From IMG/VR virus record IMGVR_UViG_3300025888_000014, positions 1 through 56,306 of that record: a stretch of 56,306 nt of DNA, one strand, 5' to 3'. Position numbers and translations under genes: made by a program. Every line of letters starts with the position of its first letter. Position 1 is the first letter of the stretch. This stretch comes from a virus. Lineage: Duplodnaviria; Caudoviricetes. The notes beneath the pieces were generated by a model. That model was not told the origin of the DNA. It made no database searches and saw nothing but the letters and a program-made list of their open reading frames with translations. This document shows positions 9,191 through 22,323 of the stretch, piece by piece.

Positions 9191-9388
9191 ATGACGAAAC
9201 TCGAAGAACTCAAAGCGGTAGAAACCCAACTCTACAAGGAAATGAAGGCGCTTGAAGATCCGCTAGATGCTAAGCGGAGCGAATGGTCCACTGCGTTCTC
9301 AGCAGTCCAGAAAGCCGAGCGTTTTGCAGAACTCGACCAGCAATATGCCGACGAAAAACTGCTGAAGGAGCAAAATGGAAACGCCTGA
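9191..9388 (+). CDS. Small coiled-coil hypothetical protein
   Basis: MTKLEELKAVETQL...; overlaps the next gene's start. Confidence 0.65.
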   Translation: MTKLEELKAVETQLYKEMKALEDPLDAKRSEWSTAFSAVQKAERFAELDQQYADEKLLKEQNGNA

Positions 9389-10379
9389 CAGCCTGCCTAA
9401 TCCGTTTTCTGCGGCTCGGATTGTGGGCATTGATACCGACCCGAACGCCTATCACAAGCTCCAGGGCGAGCGGGGCAAGCCCGAATTTATCGTCAGCAAC
9501 TCGATGCTGAAGGAGTTTTCCAAGTGCCCGCGCAAGTGGCGCGTTGGCGGCGAACCGGAGCGGGACTCTGACGCCTGTCGGTGGGGCGAACTCCTTGACG
9601 CCCGCGTGCTATCCCCGAAACAATTCGGAAGCCGATTCTCCATCATACCGGCCCAGTACCAGGATGCCAAAACGGGCGAGATGAAGGATTGGACATTCGC
9701 CGCGAATGTCTGCAAGGAGTGGCGAAAAGACCACACCGGGACCATTCACGTCAAAACCGATGAAATGGACGGGGCCGATGATGCCATTGGGCGTCTCCAG
9801 AACGACGAAGGGATCGCCGCGTTGCTCGCCTGCTCTCAAACCCAAGTCCACGTCGCCGCCGAATACCGCGACCGCGCAACCGGATTGACGGTGCCGGTCA
9901 AGGGACTTATAGACTTGGCGCCGTCGAAAGATTCAGAATTCTTCCGCACCCATTTGGCCGATCTGAAAACAGCACGAGACGGCTCGCCGTCAAAATGGAA
10001 GCGAGAAGTGTTCAGTTACGGTTACCACATCCAAGCTGCATTCTATCTCGACATGTTTAACGCCGCCACGGGTGAGGCTCGCGATGGGTTTTACCACGTC
10101 GTCTCAGAGAATATTCCCCCATACGAGCCGGCCCAGTATCTTCTATCTCTGGAATTCATCGAAGTTGGTCGGCGGTTCTATCGGGCCGCGCTCGCATTTT
10201 ATTGCCAGTGCCTAAACCGAGACGAGTGGCCCAGCTACGGTTTTGGACTGAATCAGATTAACGGTTGGACGATTTGCGAACCCGAAGCTTGGATGGTAAT
10301 CACCGAGGGGGTTCAATCGTTTCCTGACGATCCAAAACACGAAACCAATAACGAACAATCTGACGACATCACACCATGA
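9375..10379 (+). CDS. RecE/exonuclease VIII-like PD-(D/E)XK nuclease (DUF3799-like)
   Basis: YH...SNSMLK, KGLIDL...ADLKT, YGYHIQAAFY motifs. Confidence 0.85.
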   Translation: METPDSLPNPFSAARIVGIDTDPNAYHKLQGERGKPEFIVSNSMLKEFSKCPRKWRVGGEPERDSDACRWGELLDARVLSPKQFGSRFSIIPAQYQDAKTGEMKDWTFAANVCKEWRKDHTGTIHVKTDEMDGADDAIGRLQNDEGIAALLACSQTQVHVAAEYRDRATGLTVPVKGLIDLAPSKDSEFFRTHLADLKTARDGSPSKWKREVFSYGYHIQAAFYLDMFNAATGEARDGFYHVVSENIPPYEPAQYLLSLEFIEVGRRFYRAALAFYCQCLNRDEWPSYGFGLNQINGWTICEPEAWMVITEGVQSFPDDPKHETNNEQSDDITP

Positions 10380-10397
10380 GATTTTCTTCCAAGTCAC

Positions 10398-10425
10398 TTG
10401 ACACGCTTTGAATCTGTGTCATATT
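10398..10425 (+). promoter_or_regulatory. sigma70 promoter of HNH cassette 1
   Basis: TTGACA(10398)-N16-CATATT(10420). Confidence 0.55.
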
Positions 10426-10437
10426 AAAAGTGCTAAC

Positions 10438-10545
10438 ATGAATTACGGTCAACAAAATTATCCGCTTGCGAGCGTTTTAGAAACGCACTTCCCGCTTCCG
10501 TGGGTCATGTTAGCAGCGCAAGCGGAATTCTGTTGTTGCTTATGA
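10438..10545 (+). CDS. 35-aa leader peptide spanning a regulatory hairpin, coupled to the HNH gene
   Basis: MNYGQQNYPLASVLETHFPLPWVMLAAQAEFCCCL; its TGA overlaps the HNH ATG (ATGA at 10542). Confidence 0.5.
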   Translation: MNYGQQNYPLASVLETHFPLPWVMLAAQAEFCCCL

Positions 10546-11006
10546 GAACATCTCAAGTTCTAAAAACTCGTGGCCGTCGCGTTTATTATCACGCTGAAGG
10601 CAATCCACATTGGAAGGGCGGAACTTATCGCCATCACGGACGGGTTCAGGTGCTATGCCCTGACCATCCAAACTCAGGACAGAATAATTACGTGCTTCGC
10701 GCTAGATTAGTAATGGAAAAACAATTGGTCCGTTTTCTTAATCAAGACGAAGTGGTTCACCACATCAATCATGTAACCGATGATGATAGGATTCAGAATC
10801 TTCAACTGATGACTATTTTGGAGCATAACACGTATCACGCTCAGCACCAAACAAATGGACGTTGGGCAAGGAATTTTGATTGCTGTGCCCAGTGCGGGAC
10901 TAAAGAAGTTCCGCACGCAGGACGCGGATTATGCAACCGATGTAATGACAAAAGACGTTGGCCCGAGAAGTGGGCGCGTTTGAAAGCGAGACAAAATGCC
11001 ATTTGA
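10542..11006 (+). CDS. HNH homing-type endonuclease (HNH_3-like) with C-terminal zinc finger
   Basis: NPHWKGG, RLVMEK, EVVHHINHVTDDDRIQNLQL, CxxC...GLCxxC. Confidence 0.85.
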   Translation: MRTSQVLKTRGRRVYYHAEGNPHWKGGTYRHHGRVQVLCPDHPNSGQNNYVLRARLVMEKQLVRFLNQDEVVHHINHVTDDDRIQNLQLMTILEHNTYHAQHQTNGRWARNFDCCAQCGTKEVPHAGRGLCNRCNDKRRWPEKWARLKARQNAI

Positions 11007-11985
11007 AATAAAAACAGCTACCAGAACAGGCGTTCGTCCTCTTCTTGGATTTTACGGTAAATCCTCATCGGGCAAGACTATGAGCGCGTTGCTTGTAGGC
11101 CGTGGCATCGTTGGGCCGAAAGGTAGGGTTGTTCTATTGGACACGGAGAGCGGGCGAGGATCGCTCTTTGCCGATTGCATACCAGGCGGTTATTCCGTCA
11201 TGAACCTCGAACCACCGTTCTCCCCAGCCCGCTACCAGGAAGCCATTGAGGTCGCCGAAGCGCAAGCGGATATTGTGATAGTGGATAGTCTAACTCATTG
11301 TCATAATGGCGACGGTGGCATTTTGGATATGCAGGAGGCCGAACTTGACCGCATGGCTGGAAGCGATTGGAAAAAGCGTGAGGCGTGCAAAATGGCGGCA
11401 TGGATCAAGCCAAAGTTAGAGCACAAGAAGTTCATCGGGCGATTGCTTCGGTTGAAATGCGGACTGATTTGTTGTCTGCGGGGCGAGGAAAAAGTTCACA
11501 TGGTAAAGGACGAGGGTAAAACTAAGATCGTTACCGACCAGTTTTCCAGCCCGATTTTCGATAAAAATTTCATCTTTGAGTTGCTCATCAACTTTGAGAC
11601 GATTTCAGTAAACGGGGAGGGTGGATTTGTGATTCCCAGGAAGATTACCCATCCGTCAATTAAGCCATTGTTGCCCAAGGAAGGAGAGCAGATCGGAATT
11701 GCGTTCGGTGAGGCCCTGGCCCGATGGTGCGCTGCCCCTGGCGCCACGCTGCCCGCCAGCGCACCGCAAGCGCCGGAGGGTGCCAAGACGCCACCCGACC
11801 CGCTCAAGGCCGCCAAATCTAAACTGTGGTCGCTTTACAAGCCGTTCTGCAAGTCCGTAGCAGAGGCTGAAACCCAGTTGCGGACATGGAACATCATCAC
11901 GGCGGAACAAACGCTCGCTGGATTGACCCTGCCGCAAATCGAGGAAGCCATCGAGAAAACCGAACTTCAGCTAAAGGGCGAATGA
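10996..11985 (+). CDS. Sak4-like AAA ATPase (single-strand annealing/recombination)
   Basis: Walker A GKSSSGKT, LDTESG, Walker B IVDSLTH; next to the RecE-like nuclease. Confidence 0.8.
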   Translation: MPFEIKTATRTGVRPLLGFYGKSSSGKTMSALLVGRGIVGPKGRVVLLDTESGRGSLFADCIPGGYSVMNLEPPFSPARYQEAIEVAEAQADIVIVDSLTHCHNGDGGILDMQEAELDRMAGSDWKKREACKMAAWIKPKLEHKKFIGRLLRLKCGLICCLRGEEKVHMVKDEGKTKIVTDQFSSPIFDKNFIFELLINFETISVNGEGGFVIPRKITHPSIKPLLPKEGEQIGIAFGEALARWCAAPGATLPASAPQAPEGAKTPPDPLKAAKSKLWSLYKPFCKSVAEAETQLRTWNIITAEQTLAGLTLPQIEEAIEKTELQLKGE

Positions 11986-12170
11986 CGGGTTATCTTTTAA
12001 TGGGAATCGTGCTTTGGCCTGCGCTGAGAGACGCGGGCGCAACATCAAAACCTAATTGCTATTGGAACAAGGACTTCGGTTGACTATAGGAACGCGGCTT
12101 GAACCGCAAGGGACTCTCGCCCTAAAACTCTGCCGGTGTCGATTCACCGGCAGACTTGTAAGGCGACAAA

Positions 12171-12362
12171 ATGAAAACTAAACCTGATATTAAAAAGTTA
12201 GCCGTCGAAATCTACAAGGTGGCGCTTCGCGGAGCCGGGGAGTCTGTGAAGGATCGAATCCCATGGGATGACCTTGACGGACACGATAAGAATGCTCTGA
12301 TTGCGATAGCGCGGTGGCATTTGCGCGAAGTCAAAAAAGCGGTGGATGCCGTGGTATGGTAA
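12171..12362 (+). CDS. Hypothetical protein
   Basis: 63-aa ORF in operon orientation. Confidence 0.6.
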   Translation: MKTKPDIKKLAVEIYKVALRGAGESVKDRIPWDDLDGHDKNALIAIARWHLREVKKAVDAVVW

Positions 12363-12375
12363 AAAGGACAAACCC

Positions 12376-12594
12376 ATGAACCTCGCGCGTGAACGAATGC
12401 TTGCCCGCGTGCGGAAGCAGGCACAAAGGGCTTTCCCGGTGCTTGGACAGTGTGAAGATTGCCCTTGGTTCAGGGCAATCCATAGACATCACGACGATTA
12501 TGAAAAGCCGTCAGAAATCAGAATGTTGTGCCAAATGTGCCACACGGATTGGCACGTCAAACGGAGATCGTGGGGAAGGATGAAATGCTTATGA
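12376..12594 (+). CDS. Small HNH-like zinc protein
   Basis: CEDC...HRHHDDYEKP...LCQMCH..WH; start uncertain. Confidence 0.6.
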   Translation: MNLARERMLARVRKQAQRAFPVLGQCEDCPWFRAIHRHHDDYEKPSEIRMLCQMCHTDWHVKRRSWGRMKCL

Positions 12595-12716
12595 AAACCA
12601 CAGATCGTTGCTCTAAAACTCCAAACCATCGCCATTCATGGTGCGGTTGGTATCGCCACAATCGACTGGTGGGCAACAAACATTGCCTGTTCTGCGGGAA
12701 GGTGAAAAGAAAATGA
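12591..12716 (+). CDS. Small Cys/His protein
   Basis: ATGA overlaps at both ends; CLFC motif. Confidence 0.5.
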   Translation: MKTTDRCSKTPNHRHSWCGWYRHNRLVGNKHCLFCGKVKRK

Positions 12717-12883
12717 ATGCCCGGATCCAAATCGACTATGACAAGAAATGCGCGAAATGCGGCCGCGCCGGTGCCTGCCCAAACGGCTGGTGCCTGGGCT
12801 GTAACTCGAAAAAGGTGGACGCGCTTTTGGCACAAAAACTGCCAAAAAACCCTTTGACAGCGCCTGCGGGTGTGCTAGATTAA
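12713..12883 (+). CDS. Small zinc-finger protein
   Basis: CAKC...CLGC. Confidence 0.55.
   Translation: MNARIQIDYDKKCAKCGRAGACPNGWCLGCNSKKVDALLAQKLPKNPLTAPAGVLD
12854..12881 (+). promoter_or_regulatory. sigma70 promoter of HNH cassette 2 / replication genes
   Basis: TTGACA(12854)-N16-TAGATT(12876) with extended TGn. Confidence 0.6.
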
Positions 12884-12927
12884 CGCTAACGAGACGGATG
12901 TTTCGCCGCGACTGACCCTCGCCATAG

Positions 12928-13044
12928 ATGATGAGCATTATTACACAATCTTCGGTTTGGCGCTCCCGTGGGGGATTCTCCGGCTCCTGCTGGAAATGCT
13001 CGCTCGGGTCAAAGCGGGAGCGCCAAACCGCGCATCATTTATGA
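12928..13044 (+). CDS. 38-aa leader peptide spanning a regulatory hairpin, coupled to the HNH gene
   Basis: MMSIITQSSVWRSRGG...AHHL; TGA overlaps ATG at 13041. Confidence 0.5.
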   Translation: MMSIITQSSVWRSRGGFSGSCWKCSLGSKRERQTAHHL

Positions 13045-13373
13045 CGTACTCCGACCGACTAAAAGATCCGAGATGGCAGCGCAAAAGGCTGCAAATTTTC
13101 GACCGCGATAATTGGAGGTGCCTAGAATGCACCGCAGAATCGAAGCAACTCCAGGTTCATCACATCGTTTATCTGAATCGCGATCCATGGGATTACCCCG
13201 ATTATCTCTTCCAAACTTTTTGCGAACCTTGCCACAAGGAACGCCAAGAACTCACCGATAAAATCGTAAACGCCGTGAAAATGGCCATTGCGCCAGTTCC
13301 AACAATCAGACTCATTCCAACCGCGCTCGAAATATGCTCGCAAGCCATGCTCAAAATCGAGGTGGGAATATGA
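13041..13373 (+). CDS. HNH endonuclease-like protein
   Basis: YSDRLKDPRWQRKR..RD..RCLEC..LQVHH..CEPCH. Confidence 0.85.
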   Translation: MTYSDRLKDPRWQRKRLQIFDRDNWRCLECTAESKQLQVHHIVYLNRDPWDYPDYLFQTFCEPCHKERQELTDKIVNAVKMAIAPVPTIRLIPTALEICSQAMLKIEVGI

Positions 13374-14095
13374 AATGGCTCAACCTGGAACTGGCCAAGC
13401 TCCGGTCACCGGAATACATCGGCAGCGATCCGGTCCACCGGGCAACGTGGTTGAGTCTGACGGCTTATTGTGCAGAACAGGAAAATGGCGGTATCATTCG
13501 AGATTGCGCCGGGTGGAAGAGCCGAATGTGGGAACAGTCCGCCGGCGTCACAAAAGAGGAAGTGTCCGACGATTCCATGCTCTGGAAATGGGATGGAAGT
13601 TCAGTCAAAGTATGGGCCTATCCCGCCGAAAAGGAAGCTGAGGTTCAAGCTAAGCGTGAAGGTGGATATGTGGGCGGAAAAGCCTCTGGAAAAGCACGAA
13701 AAGAAGCTTCCCGCAAAGCATCCATCGAACCTCAGCTTAAAGCTGAGCTTAAAGCTGAGCTTGAACGGAATGGAATGGAAGGGAAGGGAAGTGGAAAGGA
13801 AGTGGAAGGGAATATCCCCTTGGATTCTTCTGAAATGATTCCAGAAAAACCAGATTGGGCGCCAACGTGGAATCAATGTCGGTTTTGGCTGGCTGATGTT
13901 CAAAAGAACGGTGCGAATTATACTGAACCCGAAACCAATACCGCATTCCTGGCGCTCAACGCTAACGGTTGGATGTGGGGGAAAAATCCAGTGGTTGACT
14001 GGCGTTCTGCAATCGAAAGTCGAATTCAAACCGACAGGAATCATAAACCAACAGGATCAAAACCAGAGCGCAAGGGGATGCTCTTCATGCCATGA
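13370..14095 (+). CDS. Putative replication initiator (lambda O-like architecture)
   Basis: Helical N-domain, central low-complexity linker with DNA repeats, C-terminal DWRSAI motif; directly upstream of the primase-helicase. Confidence 0.6.
   Translation: MKWLNLELAKLRSPEYIGSDPVHRATWLSLTAYCAEQENGGIIRDCAGWKSRMWEQSAGVTKEEVSDDSMLWKWDGSSVKVWAYPAEKEAEVQAKREGGYVGGKASGKARKEASRKASIEPQLKAELKAELERNGMEGKGSGKEVEGNIPLDSSEMIPEKPDWAPTWNQCRFWLADVQKNGANYTEPETNTAFLALNANGWMWGKNPVVDWRSAIESRIQTDRNHKPTGSKPERKGMLFMP
13675..13811 (+). repeat. 12-bp periodic iteron-like array plus GGAA purine tract (candidate origin)
   Basis: Eight 12-mers in phase (e.g. GCTTAAAGCTGA x2), inverted repeat CTCAGCTT-A-AAGCTGAG, then GGAAT/GGAAG repeats. 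Confidence 0.55.
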
Positions 14096-22294: not shown

Positions 22295-22323
22295 TTGACA
22301 GGGTAGTGGGGGTGTGGGATGAT
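22295..22323 (+). promoter_or_regulatory. Putative sigma70 promoter, leaderless
   Basis: TTGACA-N17-GATGAT-N7-ATG(22331), extended TG. Confidence 0.5.

What the first reader, a model, noticed from the sequence alone, without database searches (positions are those of the whole stretch)
10398..10545. Leader-peptide/antisense-hairpin switch in front of HNH gene 1
Seen: a promoter, then TGCTAACATGA (10431-41, covering the leader AUG). Its perfect complement TCATGTTAGCA (10505-15) lies inside a hairpin TCCGCTTGCG/CGCAAGCGGA (10461-70/10517-26), which has an inner stem GCGTTT/AAACGC. The pairings cross, giving a pseudoknot or mutually exclusive folds. The 35-aa leader ORF ends in an ATGA overlap with the HNH gene. 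Established analogy: P1 c4 and P4 CI antisense RNAs control coupled genes. Inference: a translational switch or RNA immunity module limiting nuclease and Sak4 expression.
Basis: partly seen in the sequence, partly recalled or inferred. Interest (0 to 1): 0.72.

Follow-up and report, generated by a model that had tools for sequence, protein, structure and literature searches.

The report
Structured leader before phage homing endonuclease
A mobile nuclease gene that has inserted between two recombination genes of a peat-soil phage carries its own promoter and a folded, translatable leader that probably keeps the nuclease at a low level; this is a variation on a known theme, not an RNA immunity system.

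Summary
The pair of crossing perfect repeats is only modestly above chance: 5.5% of shuffled windows contain an overlapping pair.

The context explains most of it. Bases 10381-10995 (promoter, 35-codon leader ORF, HNH_3 gene) form a free-standing homing-endonuclease cassette. It sits at the start/stop overlap between a RecE-like exonuclease gene and a Sak4-like ATPase gene. Contigs from two other runs leave the window exactly after 10380 and continue into a Sak4 N-terminus. In 12 related phages the two genes overlap by 4 nt.

A second, non-homologous HNH cassette 2.4 kb downstream has the same design: a similar promoter, a 38-codon leader ORF ending in an ATGA overlap, and a long helix pairing the leader start with the HNH start (z -4.49).

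Best reading (about 0.45): structure-gated, leader-coupled translation that limits HNH output. This resembles the control of T-even homing-endonuclease genes and leader-peptide coupling.

Limits and negatives:
- No Rfam match, including c4.
- No homologous leader could be retrieved, so covariation is untested.
- No RNA data.

The c4/CI immunity analogy is not supported.

The parts
9375..10379 (+). RecE-like exonuclease gene (DUF3799 / PD-(D/E)XK). Its stop TGA at 10377-79 overlaps ATG 10376 (ATGA).
   Evidence: Pfam DUF3799 at 3.6e-19; phrog_412 exonuclease VIII at 1.3e-50.
10381..10995 (+). Inserted cassette (promoter, leader, HNH gene). It is absent from sibling genomes.
   Evidence: Contigs in runs X4 (record 5) and X6 (record 15) match up to 10380. 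They then continue with sequence that reads as a Sak4 N-terminus (tables 7 and 8; hand translation). 0 of 72 related loci encode this HNH. 12 loci have a direct 4-nt exo/sak4 overlap.
10376..10411 (+). 11-codon remnant ORF (MRFSSKSLDTL) starting at the ancestral ATGA junction. Its stop TGA at 10409-11 overlaps TTG 10408 of the extended leader frame.
   Evidence: Function is inferred only.
10398..10425 (+). Sigma-70-type promoter: TTGACA, 16 nt, TG-extended CATATT. The predicted start of transcription is about 10431-10434.
   Evidence: 10 of 12, TG present. Aligns with the second cassette's promoter, including GCTAAC just downstream. No transcript data.
10431..10448 (+). Arm A: an 11-nt perfect core at 10431-41, a 3x3 internal loop, then 4 bp. 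It covers the leader AUG at 10438.
   Evidence: I1.
10498..10515 (+). Arm A', the partner of A.
   Evidence: I1.
10461..10470 (+). Arm B.
   Evidence: I3, 10 of 10 complementary.
10517..10526 (+). Arm B'. It follows A' after a single base. It can also pair 8 of 9 with the degenerate direct copy of B at 10492-10500.
   Evidence: I3, I4, D2.
10472..10486 (+). Inner hairpin C (GCGUUU / AAACGC).
   Evidence: pair probability 0.99.
10491..10504 (+). Inner hairpin D (CCCGC / GUGGG, with one G-U pair).
   Evidence: MFE structures.
10447..10455 (+). 5' strand of helix E, which extends fold B. It pairs with 10533-10541.
   Evidence: MFE; pair probability 0.47-0.69.
10533..10541 (+). 3' strand of helix E. 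It ends one base before the HNH AUG.
10438..10545 (+). 35-codon leader ORF with no Shine-Dalgarno sequence. Its stop overlaps the HNH ATG (ATGA).
   Evidence: The chance of an ATG ORF of 35 or more codons ending there is 0.040. No database protein resembles it.
10542..11006 (+). HNH_3 homing-endonuclease gene (154 aa). Some gene callers prefer GTG 10500 as the start (168 aa).
   Evidence: Pfam HNH_3 at 28.9 bits, cut-off 24.8; 11 PHROG families, 9 of them named HNH endonuclease, hit it; cluster members.
10996..11985 (+). AAA_24 / Sak4-like ATPase gene. Its start overlaps the HNH 3' end by 11 nt.
   Evidence: phrog_1366 at 7.8e-45. phrog_124 (Sak4-like) only at 0.0017. Pfam AAA_24 at 23.3 bits, below its cut-off of 27.
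10527..10556 (-). Weak promoter-like site on the minus strand (TTGAGA, 18 nt, CAGAAT). It would start an antisense RNA near 10520.
   Evidence: 9 of 12. Such sites are not enriched over shuffles.
12854..12881 (+). Promoter of the second HNH cassette (TTGACA, 16 nt, TG-extended TAGATT).
12928..13044 (+). 38-codon leader ORF of cassette 2. It ends in an ATGA overlap with the HNH start at 13041.
   Evidence: chance 0.084.
12923..13043 (+). Long hairpin of cassette 2. The outer helix 12923-36 / 13030-43 pairs the leader AUGAUG and the HNH AUG. The inner perfect 16-bp helix is 12953-68 / 13015-30.
   Evidence: 16-nt repeat; z -4.49, 0 of 200 shuffles; pair list, unpaired probability 0.00; rank 7 of 4,496 windows.
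13041..13373 (+). Second promoter-bearing HNH gene. Its stop overlaps ATG 13370 of the next gene.
   Evidence: 15 PHROG families, 13 of them named HNH endonuclease, hit it; homologues align from residue 1-3; sequence.

Best explanation
Bases 10381-10995 are a free-standing HNH_3 homing-endonuclease cassette. It inserted at the ATGA start/stop overlap that normally couples the phage's RecE-like exonuclease gene to its Sak4-like ATPase gene. The cassette carries its own sigma-70-type promoter and a 162-nt leader.

The HNH start has no Shine-Dalgarno sequence, and helices B and E partly bury the bases just upstream of it. The proposed mechanism has three steps:
1. HNH is made mainly by ribosomes that translate the 35-codon leader ORF.
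2. Those ribosomes melt helices B and E and re-initiate at the AUGA overlap.
3. Access to the leader AUG is itself gated by helix A:A'. This helix starts at the predicted 5' end of the transcript and is the first long helix able to form as the chain grows. It competes with B and E.

The net effect would be a small, possibly time-limited dose of nuclease per transcript. The promoter still feeds the downstream recombination and replication genes.

Shown: the mobile insertion, the sequence elements, the alternative folds in silico, and the repeated design in a second cassette.
Inferred: use of the promoter, translation of the leader, coupling, and the gating role of A:A'.
For: Mobile cassette:
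- HNH-less contigs in runs X4 and X6 diverge exactly after 10380. They read on as M-S-Y-E-I-K-Q-A-S-R-T, compared with the window's Sak4 start MPFEIKTATRT (hand translation).
- An HNH-bearing variant differs from the window at 72 of 1,038 aligned bases (about 93% identical) (record 16).
- 0 of 72 related loci carry this HNH.
- Of 53 loci with exo upstream of sak4, 12 have an exact 4-nt overlap. 26 carry inserts longer than 100 nt at this junction. Three of 10 tested insert ORFs are other HNH_3 genes.

Leader elements:
- Promoter scores 10 of 12 with TG.
- Arm A begins at 10431, 6 nt after the -10 element.
- Folds A and B are -38.2 and -39.1 kcal/mol, with probabilities 0.24 and 0.76.
- In growing chains, A has probability 1.00 for 3' ends at 10510-10524 and gives way to B from 10527 on.
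- A leader ORF of 35 or more codons ending on the ATGA has chance 0.040.

Same design in a second cassette with non-homologous leader sequence:
- The promoters align.
- A 38-codon ORF ends in ATGA (chance 0.084).
- A helix pairs both start codons and contains G-U pairs that only the plus-strand RNA can form.
- z is -4.49.
- Initiation-region accessibility is 0.14 and 0.19, below all 21 other genes tested, which span 0.24-0.72.

Precedent: hairpins that hide the RBS, and overlapping stop/start codons, limit expression of T-even homing endonucleases (PMC2988022, passages read).
Against: - No comparative support. No homologous leader was found in viral, metagenome or genome collections or in the fetched loci. 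Covariation is therefore untested.
- No RNA run holds the region, so the promoter, the transcript 5' end and leader translation are all unverified.
- In cassette 1 the equilibrium ensemble leaves the leader AUG mostly open (0.72). The HNH initiation region is unremarkable at 0.35; 4 of 21 other genes are lower.
- The A/B balance depends on a transcription start at or before 10432. With a start at 10434 or later, or in read-through transcripts, B wins outright with P of 0.97 or more.
- The structure ranks only 76th of 4,496 windows.
- The minus strand folds as well.
- The pair of helices occurs by chance in 5.5% of shuffled windows.
- Related HNH_3 insertions at the same junction manage without any leader.
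- Short ATGA-terminated upstream ORFs are not general among 73 homologues of the second HNH (noisy start calls).
Confidence: 0.45

Rival explanations
1. The helices have no regulatory role. They are chance complementarity, or a by-product of how the 166-bp promoter-leader segment was acquired. HNH is simply translated from ATG 10542 or GTG 10500.
For: - An overlapping pair of helices of 10 nt or more occurs in 5.5% of shuffled windows.
- The region ranks 76th of 4,496 windows.
- HNH start accessibility is ordinary at 0.35.
- Three of four gene calls in the protein cluster use GTG 10500.
- No protein resembling the leader peptide exists in the database.
- Related HNH_3 insertions need no leader.
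Against: - Both helices lie exactly in a promoter-proximal leader, and arm A starts at the predicted transcript 5' end.
- A second cassette repeats the design with much stronger statistics.
- Joint chance of the two ATGA-terminated leader ORFs is about 0.003 (product of 0.040 and 0.084).
- The 14 codons of the GTG frame (10500-10541) are unchanged in a variant that differs at 72 of 1,038 bases.
Confidence: 0.2
2. The structure acts on the transcript, not on translation. One version is a 5'-terminal helix (A:A') that protects the mRNA from 5'-end-dependent decay. The other is a leader-peptide transcription attenuator: B:B' (or B*:B') plus the U-rich run AAUUCUGUUGUUGCUU is the terminator, and A:A' is the anti-terminator.
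For: - A:A' begins at the predicted +1.
- B' is followed by a U-rich tract. There are 5 T in the 8 bases at 10528-35.
- B has a degenerate direct copy at 10492-10500 that also pairs with B' (D2, I4). This gives three-way alternatives, as in attenuators.
- A leader ORF spans all segments.
- The trp attenuator logic is described in PMC4615214 (passages read).
Against:
- The U tract is interrupted and begins after AA.
- There is no obvious regulatory-codon logic for a nuclease gene.
- A terminator here would also cut off Sak4 and the replication genes.
- Cassette 2 has no U tract after its hairpin.
Confidence: 0.12
3. A sense/antisense pair, as in plasmid R1 CopA / tap-repA or IncB RNAI / repB-repA. 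A roughly 95-nt antisense RNA starts near 10520 from the minus-strand promoter-like site. It ends after arm A at CUUUUAAUAU. It blocks leader translation and hence the coupled HNH.
For: - A minus-strand site TTGAGA, 18 nt, CAGAAT at 10556-10527 places a start 3-4 nt before arm A'.
- On that strand the A'/A stem is followed by a U run (read).
- The minus strand folds well, z -2.76.
- The leader ORF with an overlapping stop/start is the arrangement of tap-repA. This comparison is recalled, not checked in a paper here.
Against: - The promoter scores only 9 of 12. Such sites are at chance frequency: 18, 31 and 7 found against 16.1, 19.4 and 11.5 expected.
- The would-be terminator stem encloses 63 nt, which is atypical.
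- The inner hairpin loops are 3-4 nt, too small for classic kissing loops.
- Cassette 2 has no antisense promoter-like site.
- No RNA data.
Confidence: 0.08
4. The repeats act as DNA. They would be protein-binding half-sites at and downstream of the promoter (operator or looping), or cruciform-prone sequence tied to the endonuclease or to recombination.
For: - Both helices are perfect Watson-Crick repeats with no strand asymmetry.
- Arm A overlaps the +1 region, where operators often sit.
- GCTAAC recurs just after both cassette promoters.
- The A and A' centres are 74 bp apart, about 7 helical turns.
Against: - Neither arm is itself palindromic.
- GCTAAC is not enriched: 17 found against 15.2 expected.
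- No DNA-binding regulator is encoded in the cassette.
- The extensions of the helices in the folds use G-U pairs and bulges typical of RNA.
- The homing target should be the empty site, which the insertion destroys.
Confidence: 0.08
5. A c4 / CI-type processed antisense RNA immunity module.
For: Only the general resemblance: complementarity to a leader start codon upstream of coupled genes. The c4-icd-ant arrangement is summarised in PMC8198154 (passages read).
Against: - No Rfam match at gathering score in the window. No c4-like hit at E up to 10 in 10200-10800.
- The arms are single-copy.
- The complementarity is in cis within one ORF.
- The unit belongs to a mobile nuclease gene, not to an immunity region.
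- No repressor or antirepressor genes are adjacent.
Confidence: 0.02

Closest known systems
Translational control of T-even phage homing-endonuclease genes (I-TevI, I-TevII, I-TevIII, segB, Aeh1 mobE), reviewed in PMC2988022
   Same: A free-standing or intron-borne nuclease gene sits among essential phage genes with a nearby promoter of its own. RNA secondary structure around its translation start limits expression. Overlapping stop/start codons (mobE UAAUGA) suggest coupling (passages read).
   Different: In those cases a local hairpin hides a consensus Shine-Dalgarno sequence. A late promoter placed inside or after the hairpin relieves it. Here there is no Shine-Dalgarno sequence and the promoter lies upstream of all arms. 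The structure is long-range with two competing helices. A dedicated 35-codon leader ORF, not the upstream gene, supplies the coupling. The host and phage group are unrelated to T4.
Leader-peptide translational coupling in plasmid replication control (R1 tap-repA with CopA; IncB / IncI-alpha repB(repY)-repA(repZ) with a pseudoknot). Recalled; no paper read here.
   Same: A short leader ORF's stop overlaps or abuts the start of a dose-sensitive gene. The downstream start is buried in structure that leader translation opens. Long-range pairing or a pseudoknot is involved.
   Different: Those systems depend on a demonstrated antisense RNA. Here only a 9-of-12 promoter-like site hints at one. There is no sequence or family relationship, and the gene controlled is a nuclease, not a replication initiator.
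Kinetic gating of the MS2 maturation gene by a long-distance interaction (PMC4615214)
   Same: A start region near the 5' end is accessible only before a long-distance pairing forms. Translation is therefore limited to nascent chains (passages read). The same logic is proposed for A:A' here and for the outer helix of cassette 2.
   Different: In MS2 an upstream complementary sequence pairs with the Shine-Dalgarno sequence in an RNA genome, and this is supported by covariation and experiments. Here the pairing partner is downstream, the start has no Shine-Dalgarno sequence, and nothing has been tested.
P1 c4 / P4 CI antisense RNAs
   Same: Complementarity to the start region of a leader gene whose translation is needed for the downstream gene (c4-icd-ant; PMC8198154, passages read).
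   Different: Those are trans-acting processed RNAs with repeated target boxes in an immunity operon. None of these features was found here.

Membership tests
HNH_3 endonuclease (Pfam PF13392) acting as a free-standing homing endonuclease | Match to the HNH_3 profile above the curated cut-off | tested here: met
   28.9 bits against a cut-off of 24.8. 11 PHROG families hit it, 9 of them named HNH endonuclease.
HNH_3 endonuclease (Pfam PF13392) acting as a free-standing homing endonuclease | Presence/absence polymorphism at a precise site between conserved genes | tested here: met
   HNH-less contigs break at 10380 and continue into sak4. 12 relatives have a direct exo/sak4 overlap, and other HNH_3 genes occupy the same junction.
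HNH_3 endonuclease (Pfam PF13392) acting as a free-standing homing endonuclease | Cleavage of the empty site, and homing | not testable with these tools
   Needs enzyme assays or co-infection experiments.
P1 c4 / P4 CI antisense RNA | Similarity to the curated RNA family models | tested here: not met
   0 matches at gathering score in the whole window. Only 4 chance-level hits at E 0.97-9.5 in 10200-10800, none c4-like.
P1 c4 / P4 CI antisense RNA | Trans action on repeated target boxes elsewhere in the operon | tested here: not met
   Each arm occurs once. No further copy of the leader appears in the window or in 213 loci.
T-even type homing-endonuclease regulatory hairpin | Stable structure occluding the RBS or start codon of the endonuclease gene | tested here: inconclusive
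   Cassette 1: helix E ends at position -1, but the accessibility of 0.35 lies within the range of other genes. Cassette 2: both starts have unpaired probability 0.00.
T-even type homing-endonuclease regulatory hairpin | Promoter placed so that its transcripts lack the inhibitory arm | tested here: not met
   The promoter at 10398-10425 lies upstream of all arms. What changes between transcript classes is instead the A/B balance.
Leader-peptide translational coupling (tap-repA type) | Leader ORF stop overlapping the downstream start, with no independent Shine-Dalgarno sequence | tested here: met
   ATGA at 10542-45. No GGAG, GAGG, AGGA or AAGG in the 25 nt upstream of either start.
Leader-peptide translational coupling (tap-repA type) | Cognate antisense RNA | tested here: inconclusive
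   Only a 9-of-12 promoter-like site on the minus strand. No RNA run holds the region.
Leader-peptide transcription attenuator | Terminator hairpin followed directly by a U run, with competing anti-terminator pairing | tested here: inconclusive
   Competing pairings exist. The scan calls no terminator here and the U tract is interrupted.

The most novel reading that the evidence does not exclude
Homing-endonuclease genes in this phage have twice, independently, acquired a modular 'promoter plus translated, self-closing leader'. This module acts as a co-transcriptional timer. The leader AUG is open only until its downstream partner is transcribed. Each transcript would then yield roughly one burst of leader-coupled nuclease before locking shut. 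In cassette 1 the lock can flip between two near-isoenergetic folds, or form a pseudoknot in which A'-G-B' is one continuous strand.
Probability: 0.2. Interest if true: 0.55.

Novelty: new variant of a known kind. Interest (0 to 1): 0.35.

Why it matters
Homing endonucleases must be expressed strongly enough to spread but weakly enough not to damage their carrier. How they manage this outside the T4 group is largely unstudied.

If the leader-coupled, structure-gated design is real, it would be a second general solution alongside RBS-hiding hairpins. It would also be a compact natural part (promoter plus self-limiting leader) for low-dose expression of toxic genes.

The population data also give a clean example of intron-less homing at a translationally coupled gene junction that appears to be an insertion hot spot in a whole group of soil phages.

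If the leader is not functional, this remains an ordinary mobile HNH gene.

Tried and rejected
Searches for homologous leaders, needed for covariation:
- The window's HNH in viral contigs: none found.
- HNH alignment in metagenome contigs: 66 loci, all 59% identical or less (best matching segment) and covering only part of the protein.
- HNH alignment in genome contigs: 2 distant loci.
- An exact 26-nt leader pattern in viral contigs: 0 hits.
- The exonuclease in viral contigs: one 29% hit.
- blastn-short and nhmmer of both leaders against 213 loci plus the window: only self hits.
- The only true orthologue (P0002, 54% identical, on a 1,021-nt contig) and the three near-identical contigs of 1,415, 3,526 and 7,603 nt could not be fetched.

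Other attempts:
- Read laying showed that a variant (record 16) with 72 differences covers the leader. The table of differences was cut off before 10350, so its leader substitutions are unknown.
- No RNA holder was listed among the sequencing runs.
- The 45-aa extended leader peptide found no database protein.
- A survey of 73 homologues of the second HNH for short ATGA-terminated upstream ORFs gave a few cases (39, 39, 34, 54 and 49 codons). Start calls were too noisy to use.
- The similarity between the exo-stop junction and the HNH start is limited to ATGAGA plus TCT without gaps. I keep it only as a weak hint that the promoter-leader segment entered a formerly direct exo-ATGA-HNH junction.
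- GCTAAC as a repeated site: not enriched.
- TTGACA followed within 14-20 nt by GCTAAC: no match, because the spacing is longer.
Full report
**What the window is.** The window is a complete 56,306-bp virus record. Its DNA is held by peat and soil metagenome runs. GC content is 51%. Some genes have strong Shine-Dalgarno sequences, but most have only A-rich upstream regions.

**The observation.**
These are a TTGACA-16-CATATT promoter with an extended TG (10 of 12), the 11-nt arm A at 10431-41 over ATG 10438 with its perfect complement at 10505-15, the 10-bp helix B (10461-70 / 10517-26), and the inner GCGTTT/AAACGC stem.
- The order A, B, A', B' means the helices cross.
- A:A' extends to 15 bp around a 3x3 internal loop.
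- The 35-codon ORF ends in an ATGA overlap with the HNH start.

**Is it more than chance?**
- The window has 11 perfect inverted repeats of 10 nt or more with spacers up to 100 nt. Shuffles gave 5.2 +/- 2.0.
- An overlapping pair of such helices occurs in 5.5% of shuffled windows.
- The fold z-scores are -2.56 for 10428-10560 and -3.15 with flanks.
- The region ranks only 76th of 4,496 sliding windows.
- The complementary strand folds equally well.

**Genes and context.**
- Upstream is a RecE-like exonuclease gene (DUF3799; phrog_412 at 1e-50).
- The gene after the leader is an HNH_3 endonuclease (28.9 bits against a cut-off of 24.8).
- Next comes an AAA_24 / Sak4-like ATPase (phrog_1366 at 8e-45; the Sak4 label itself is weak, E 0.0017).
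- Its start overlaps the HNH 3' end by 11 nt.

**The unit is a mobile insertion.** Contigs from four other runs were laid on 9900-11400.
- Two contigs (X4 record 5; X6 record 15, the deeper one) match the exonuclease gene at about 90%. Both leave the window exactly after 10380.
- Read in frame with ATG 10376, which overlaps the exonuclease stop, their next letters translate by hand to M-S-Y-E-I-K-Q-A-S-R-T. The window's Sak4-like protein starts MPFEIKTATRT.
- These genomes therefore lack the cassette and couple exo to sak4 through an ATGA overlap.
- Another X6 contig (record 16, 1,415 nt) carries the leader, HNH and sak4 5' region at about 93% identity. HNH-bearing and HNH-less alleles thus coexist in one sample.

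**Related phages.**
- Among 72 related viral loci found with the ATPase, none encodes this HNH.
- Of the 53 loci with exo upstream of sak4, 12 have an exact 4-nt overlap and 24 have gaps of 10 nt or less. 26 carry inserts longer than 100 nt at the junction.
- Three of ten insert ORFs tested are other HNH_3 genes (L013, L035, L043). One is a cytosine methylase.
- In L013 and L043 the HNH is chained exo-ATGA-HNH-ATGA-sak4 with no leader (junction strings).
- The junction is an insertion hot spot. The window's cassette is unusual in having a 162-nt promoter-leader module.

**A second cassette with the same design.** Six of the 11 long inverted repeats lie between 10.4 and 13.8 kb. The longest, 16 bp at 12953-68 / 13015-30, sits in front of another HNH gene (13041-13373).
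- That gene has a promoter (12854-81) that aligns with the first one, including GCTAAC just downstream.
- It has a 38-codon ORF (12928-13044) ending in ATGA on the HNH start.
- An outer helix (12923-36 / 13030-43) pairs the leader AUGAUG with CAUCAU and pairs the HNH AUG as well. It includes G-U pairs that only the plus-strand RNA can form.
- The fold has z -4.49, with 0 of 200 shuffles as stable. It ranks 7th of 4,496 windows.
- Both start regions are less accessible (0.14 and 0.19) than all 21 other genes tested, which span 0.24-0.72.
- Beyond the promoter the two leaders share no sequence.
- The chance of ATG ORFs of 35 or more codons ending on the ATGA is 0.040 for cassette 1 and 0.084 for cassette 2.
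- Two unrelated leaders with one architecture is the best evidence available that the architecture is selected.

**Folding of cassette 1.**
- From a start at 10432, the fold containing A (leader AUG paired at the very 5' end) and the fold containing B plus its extension E (10447-55 / 10533-41, ending at -1 of the HNH AUG) differ by 0.9 kcal/mol. Their probabilities are 0.24 and 0.76.
- In growing chains, A has probability 1.00 while the 3' end lies at 10510-10524. B competes only once 10527 is reached.
- With a start at 10434 or later, or in read-through transcripts from the exonuclease gene, B wins (0.97 or more). In read-through transcripts an outer helix (10377-88 / 10545-56) also encloses the whole leader.
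- B' can also pair with a degenerate direct copy of B at 10492-10500.
- Both helices might coexist as a pseudoknot. A'-G-B' would be one continuous strand, with B and the transcript's 5'-terminal arm A as the other strand. This is my geometric inference and was not computed.

**Most likely mechanism (confidence about 0.45).** HNH has no Shine-Dalgarno sequence, and its upstream bases are partly buried. It would be made mainly by ribosomes that translate the leader, melt B and E, and re-initiate at the AUGA. A:A' gates the leader AUG, closing it soon after synthesis or in part of the molecules. The nuclease dose per transcript stays small while the promoter still drives the downstream genes.
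- This matches the known need to restrain homing endonucleases. In T-even phages this is done by RBS-hiding hairpins and by overlapping stop/start codons (PMC2988022, passages read).
- It also matches the kinetic gating of the MS2 maturation gene (PMC4615214, passages read).

**Evidence against.**
- Cassette 1's equilibrium accessibilities are unremarkable: leader AUG 0.72, HNH 0.35.
- The A/B balance depends on an unverified transcription start.
- There are no RNA data.
- There are no homologous leaders for a covariation test.
- The only comparative hint is that the 14 codons of the GTG frame over 10500-10541 are unchanged in a variant with 72 differences over 1,038 nt.

**Rivals.**
- Chance or a historical by-product: 0.20.
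- A transcript-level role, either 5' stabiliser or leader-peptide attenuator using B:B' plus the U-rich run: 0.12.
- A CopA-like antisense RNA from the weak minus-strand promoter-like site at 10556-10527: 0.08. Such sites are at chance frequency.
- DNA-level binding sites: 0.08.
- The c4/CI reading: 0.02. It fails the Rfam test and the repeated-target test.

**Verdict.** This is a new variant of a known kind: regulated expression of a free-standing homing endonuclease. Interest is moderate. It rests mainly on the repeated promoter-plus-leader design and on the clear population evidence for homing at a coupled gene junction.

Noticed in passing
window 12854-13373: A second HNH cassette. It has a promoter like the first, a 38-codon leader ORF ending in ATGA on the HNH start, and a 120-nt hairpin that pairs both start codons (z -4.49). 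Its structural signal is stronger than that of the reported finding.
   Followed up: yes
window 10400-13750: Six of the window's 11 perfect inverted repeats of 10 nt or more (spacer up to 100 nt) cluster in this 3.4-kb stretch. They include 13292-13301 / 13386-13395 across the HNH3 / next-gene boundary, and 13635-46 / 13727-38 inside ORF 13370-14095.
   Followed up: partly
loci L005-L073 (exo/sak4 junction): The exonuclease/ATPase junction is an insertion hot spot in this phage group. 26 of 53 loci carry inserts of 175-1,780 nt. These include other HNH_3 genes (L013, L035, L043) and a C-5 cytosine methylase (L072). Many of these loci keep ATGA or GTGA at the exonuclease stop.
   Followed up: partly
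window 10996-11030, compared with contigs of runs X4 and X6: HNH-less alleles are about 90% identical to the window in the exonuclease gene. They match only about half of the first 30 bases of sak4 (hand comparison). This fits a diverged, cleavage-resistant target next to the endonuclease gene.
   Followed up: partly
window 22295-22323: A third TTGACA promoter-like site with the same GTGTG motif before the -10 element. Its -10 element overlaps ATG 22319 of a 338-aa ORF, which suggests a leaderless or near-leaderless start.
   Followed up: no
window 12040-12170: The 185-nt gap after the ATPase gene is strongly structured on both strands (sliding-window z -2.60 and -2.95). It contains a 10-bp hairpin at 12129-38 / 12145-54 with no clear U run. 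It could be a terminator or a small RNA.
   Followed up: no
window 10462-10475 and 10492-10505: An in-frame 14-nt direct repeat (79% identical, 30 nt apart) inside the leader ORF. It gives the peptide motifs Y-P-L-A and F-P-L-P. The second copy is an alternative partner for arm B'.
   Followed up: partly
window 12376-12594: A third small HNH-like gene (phrog_2340 at 1e-11). It has an ordinary AAGGA Shine-Dalgarno sequence and no leader. That makes three nuclease genes within 3 kb of the recombination/replication module.
   Followed up: no
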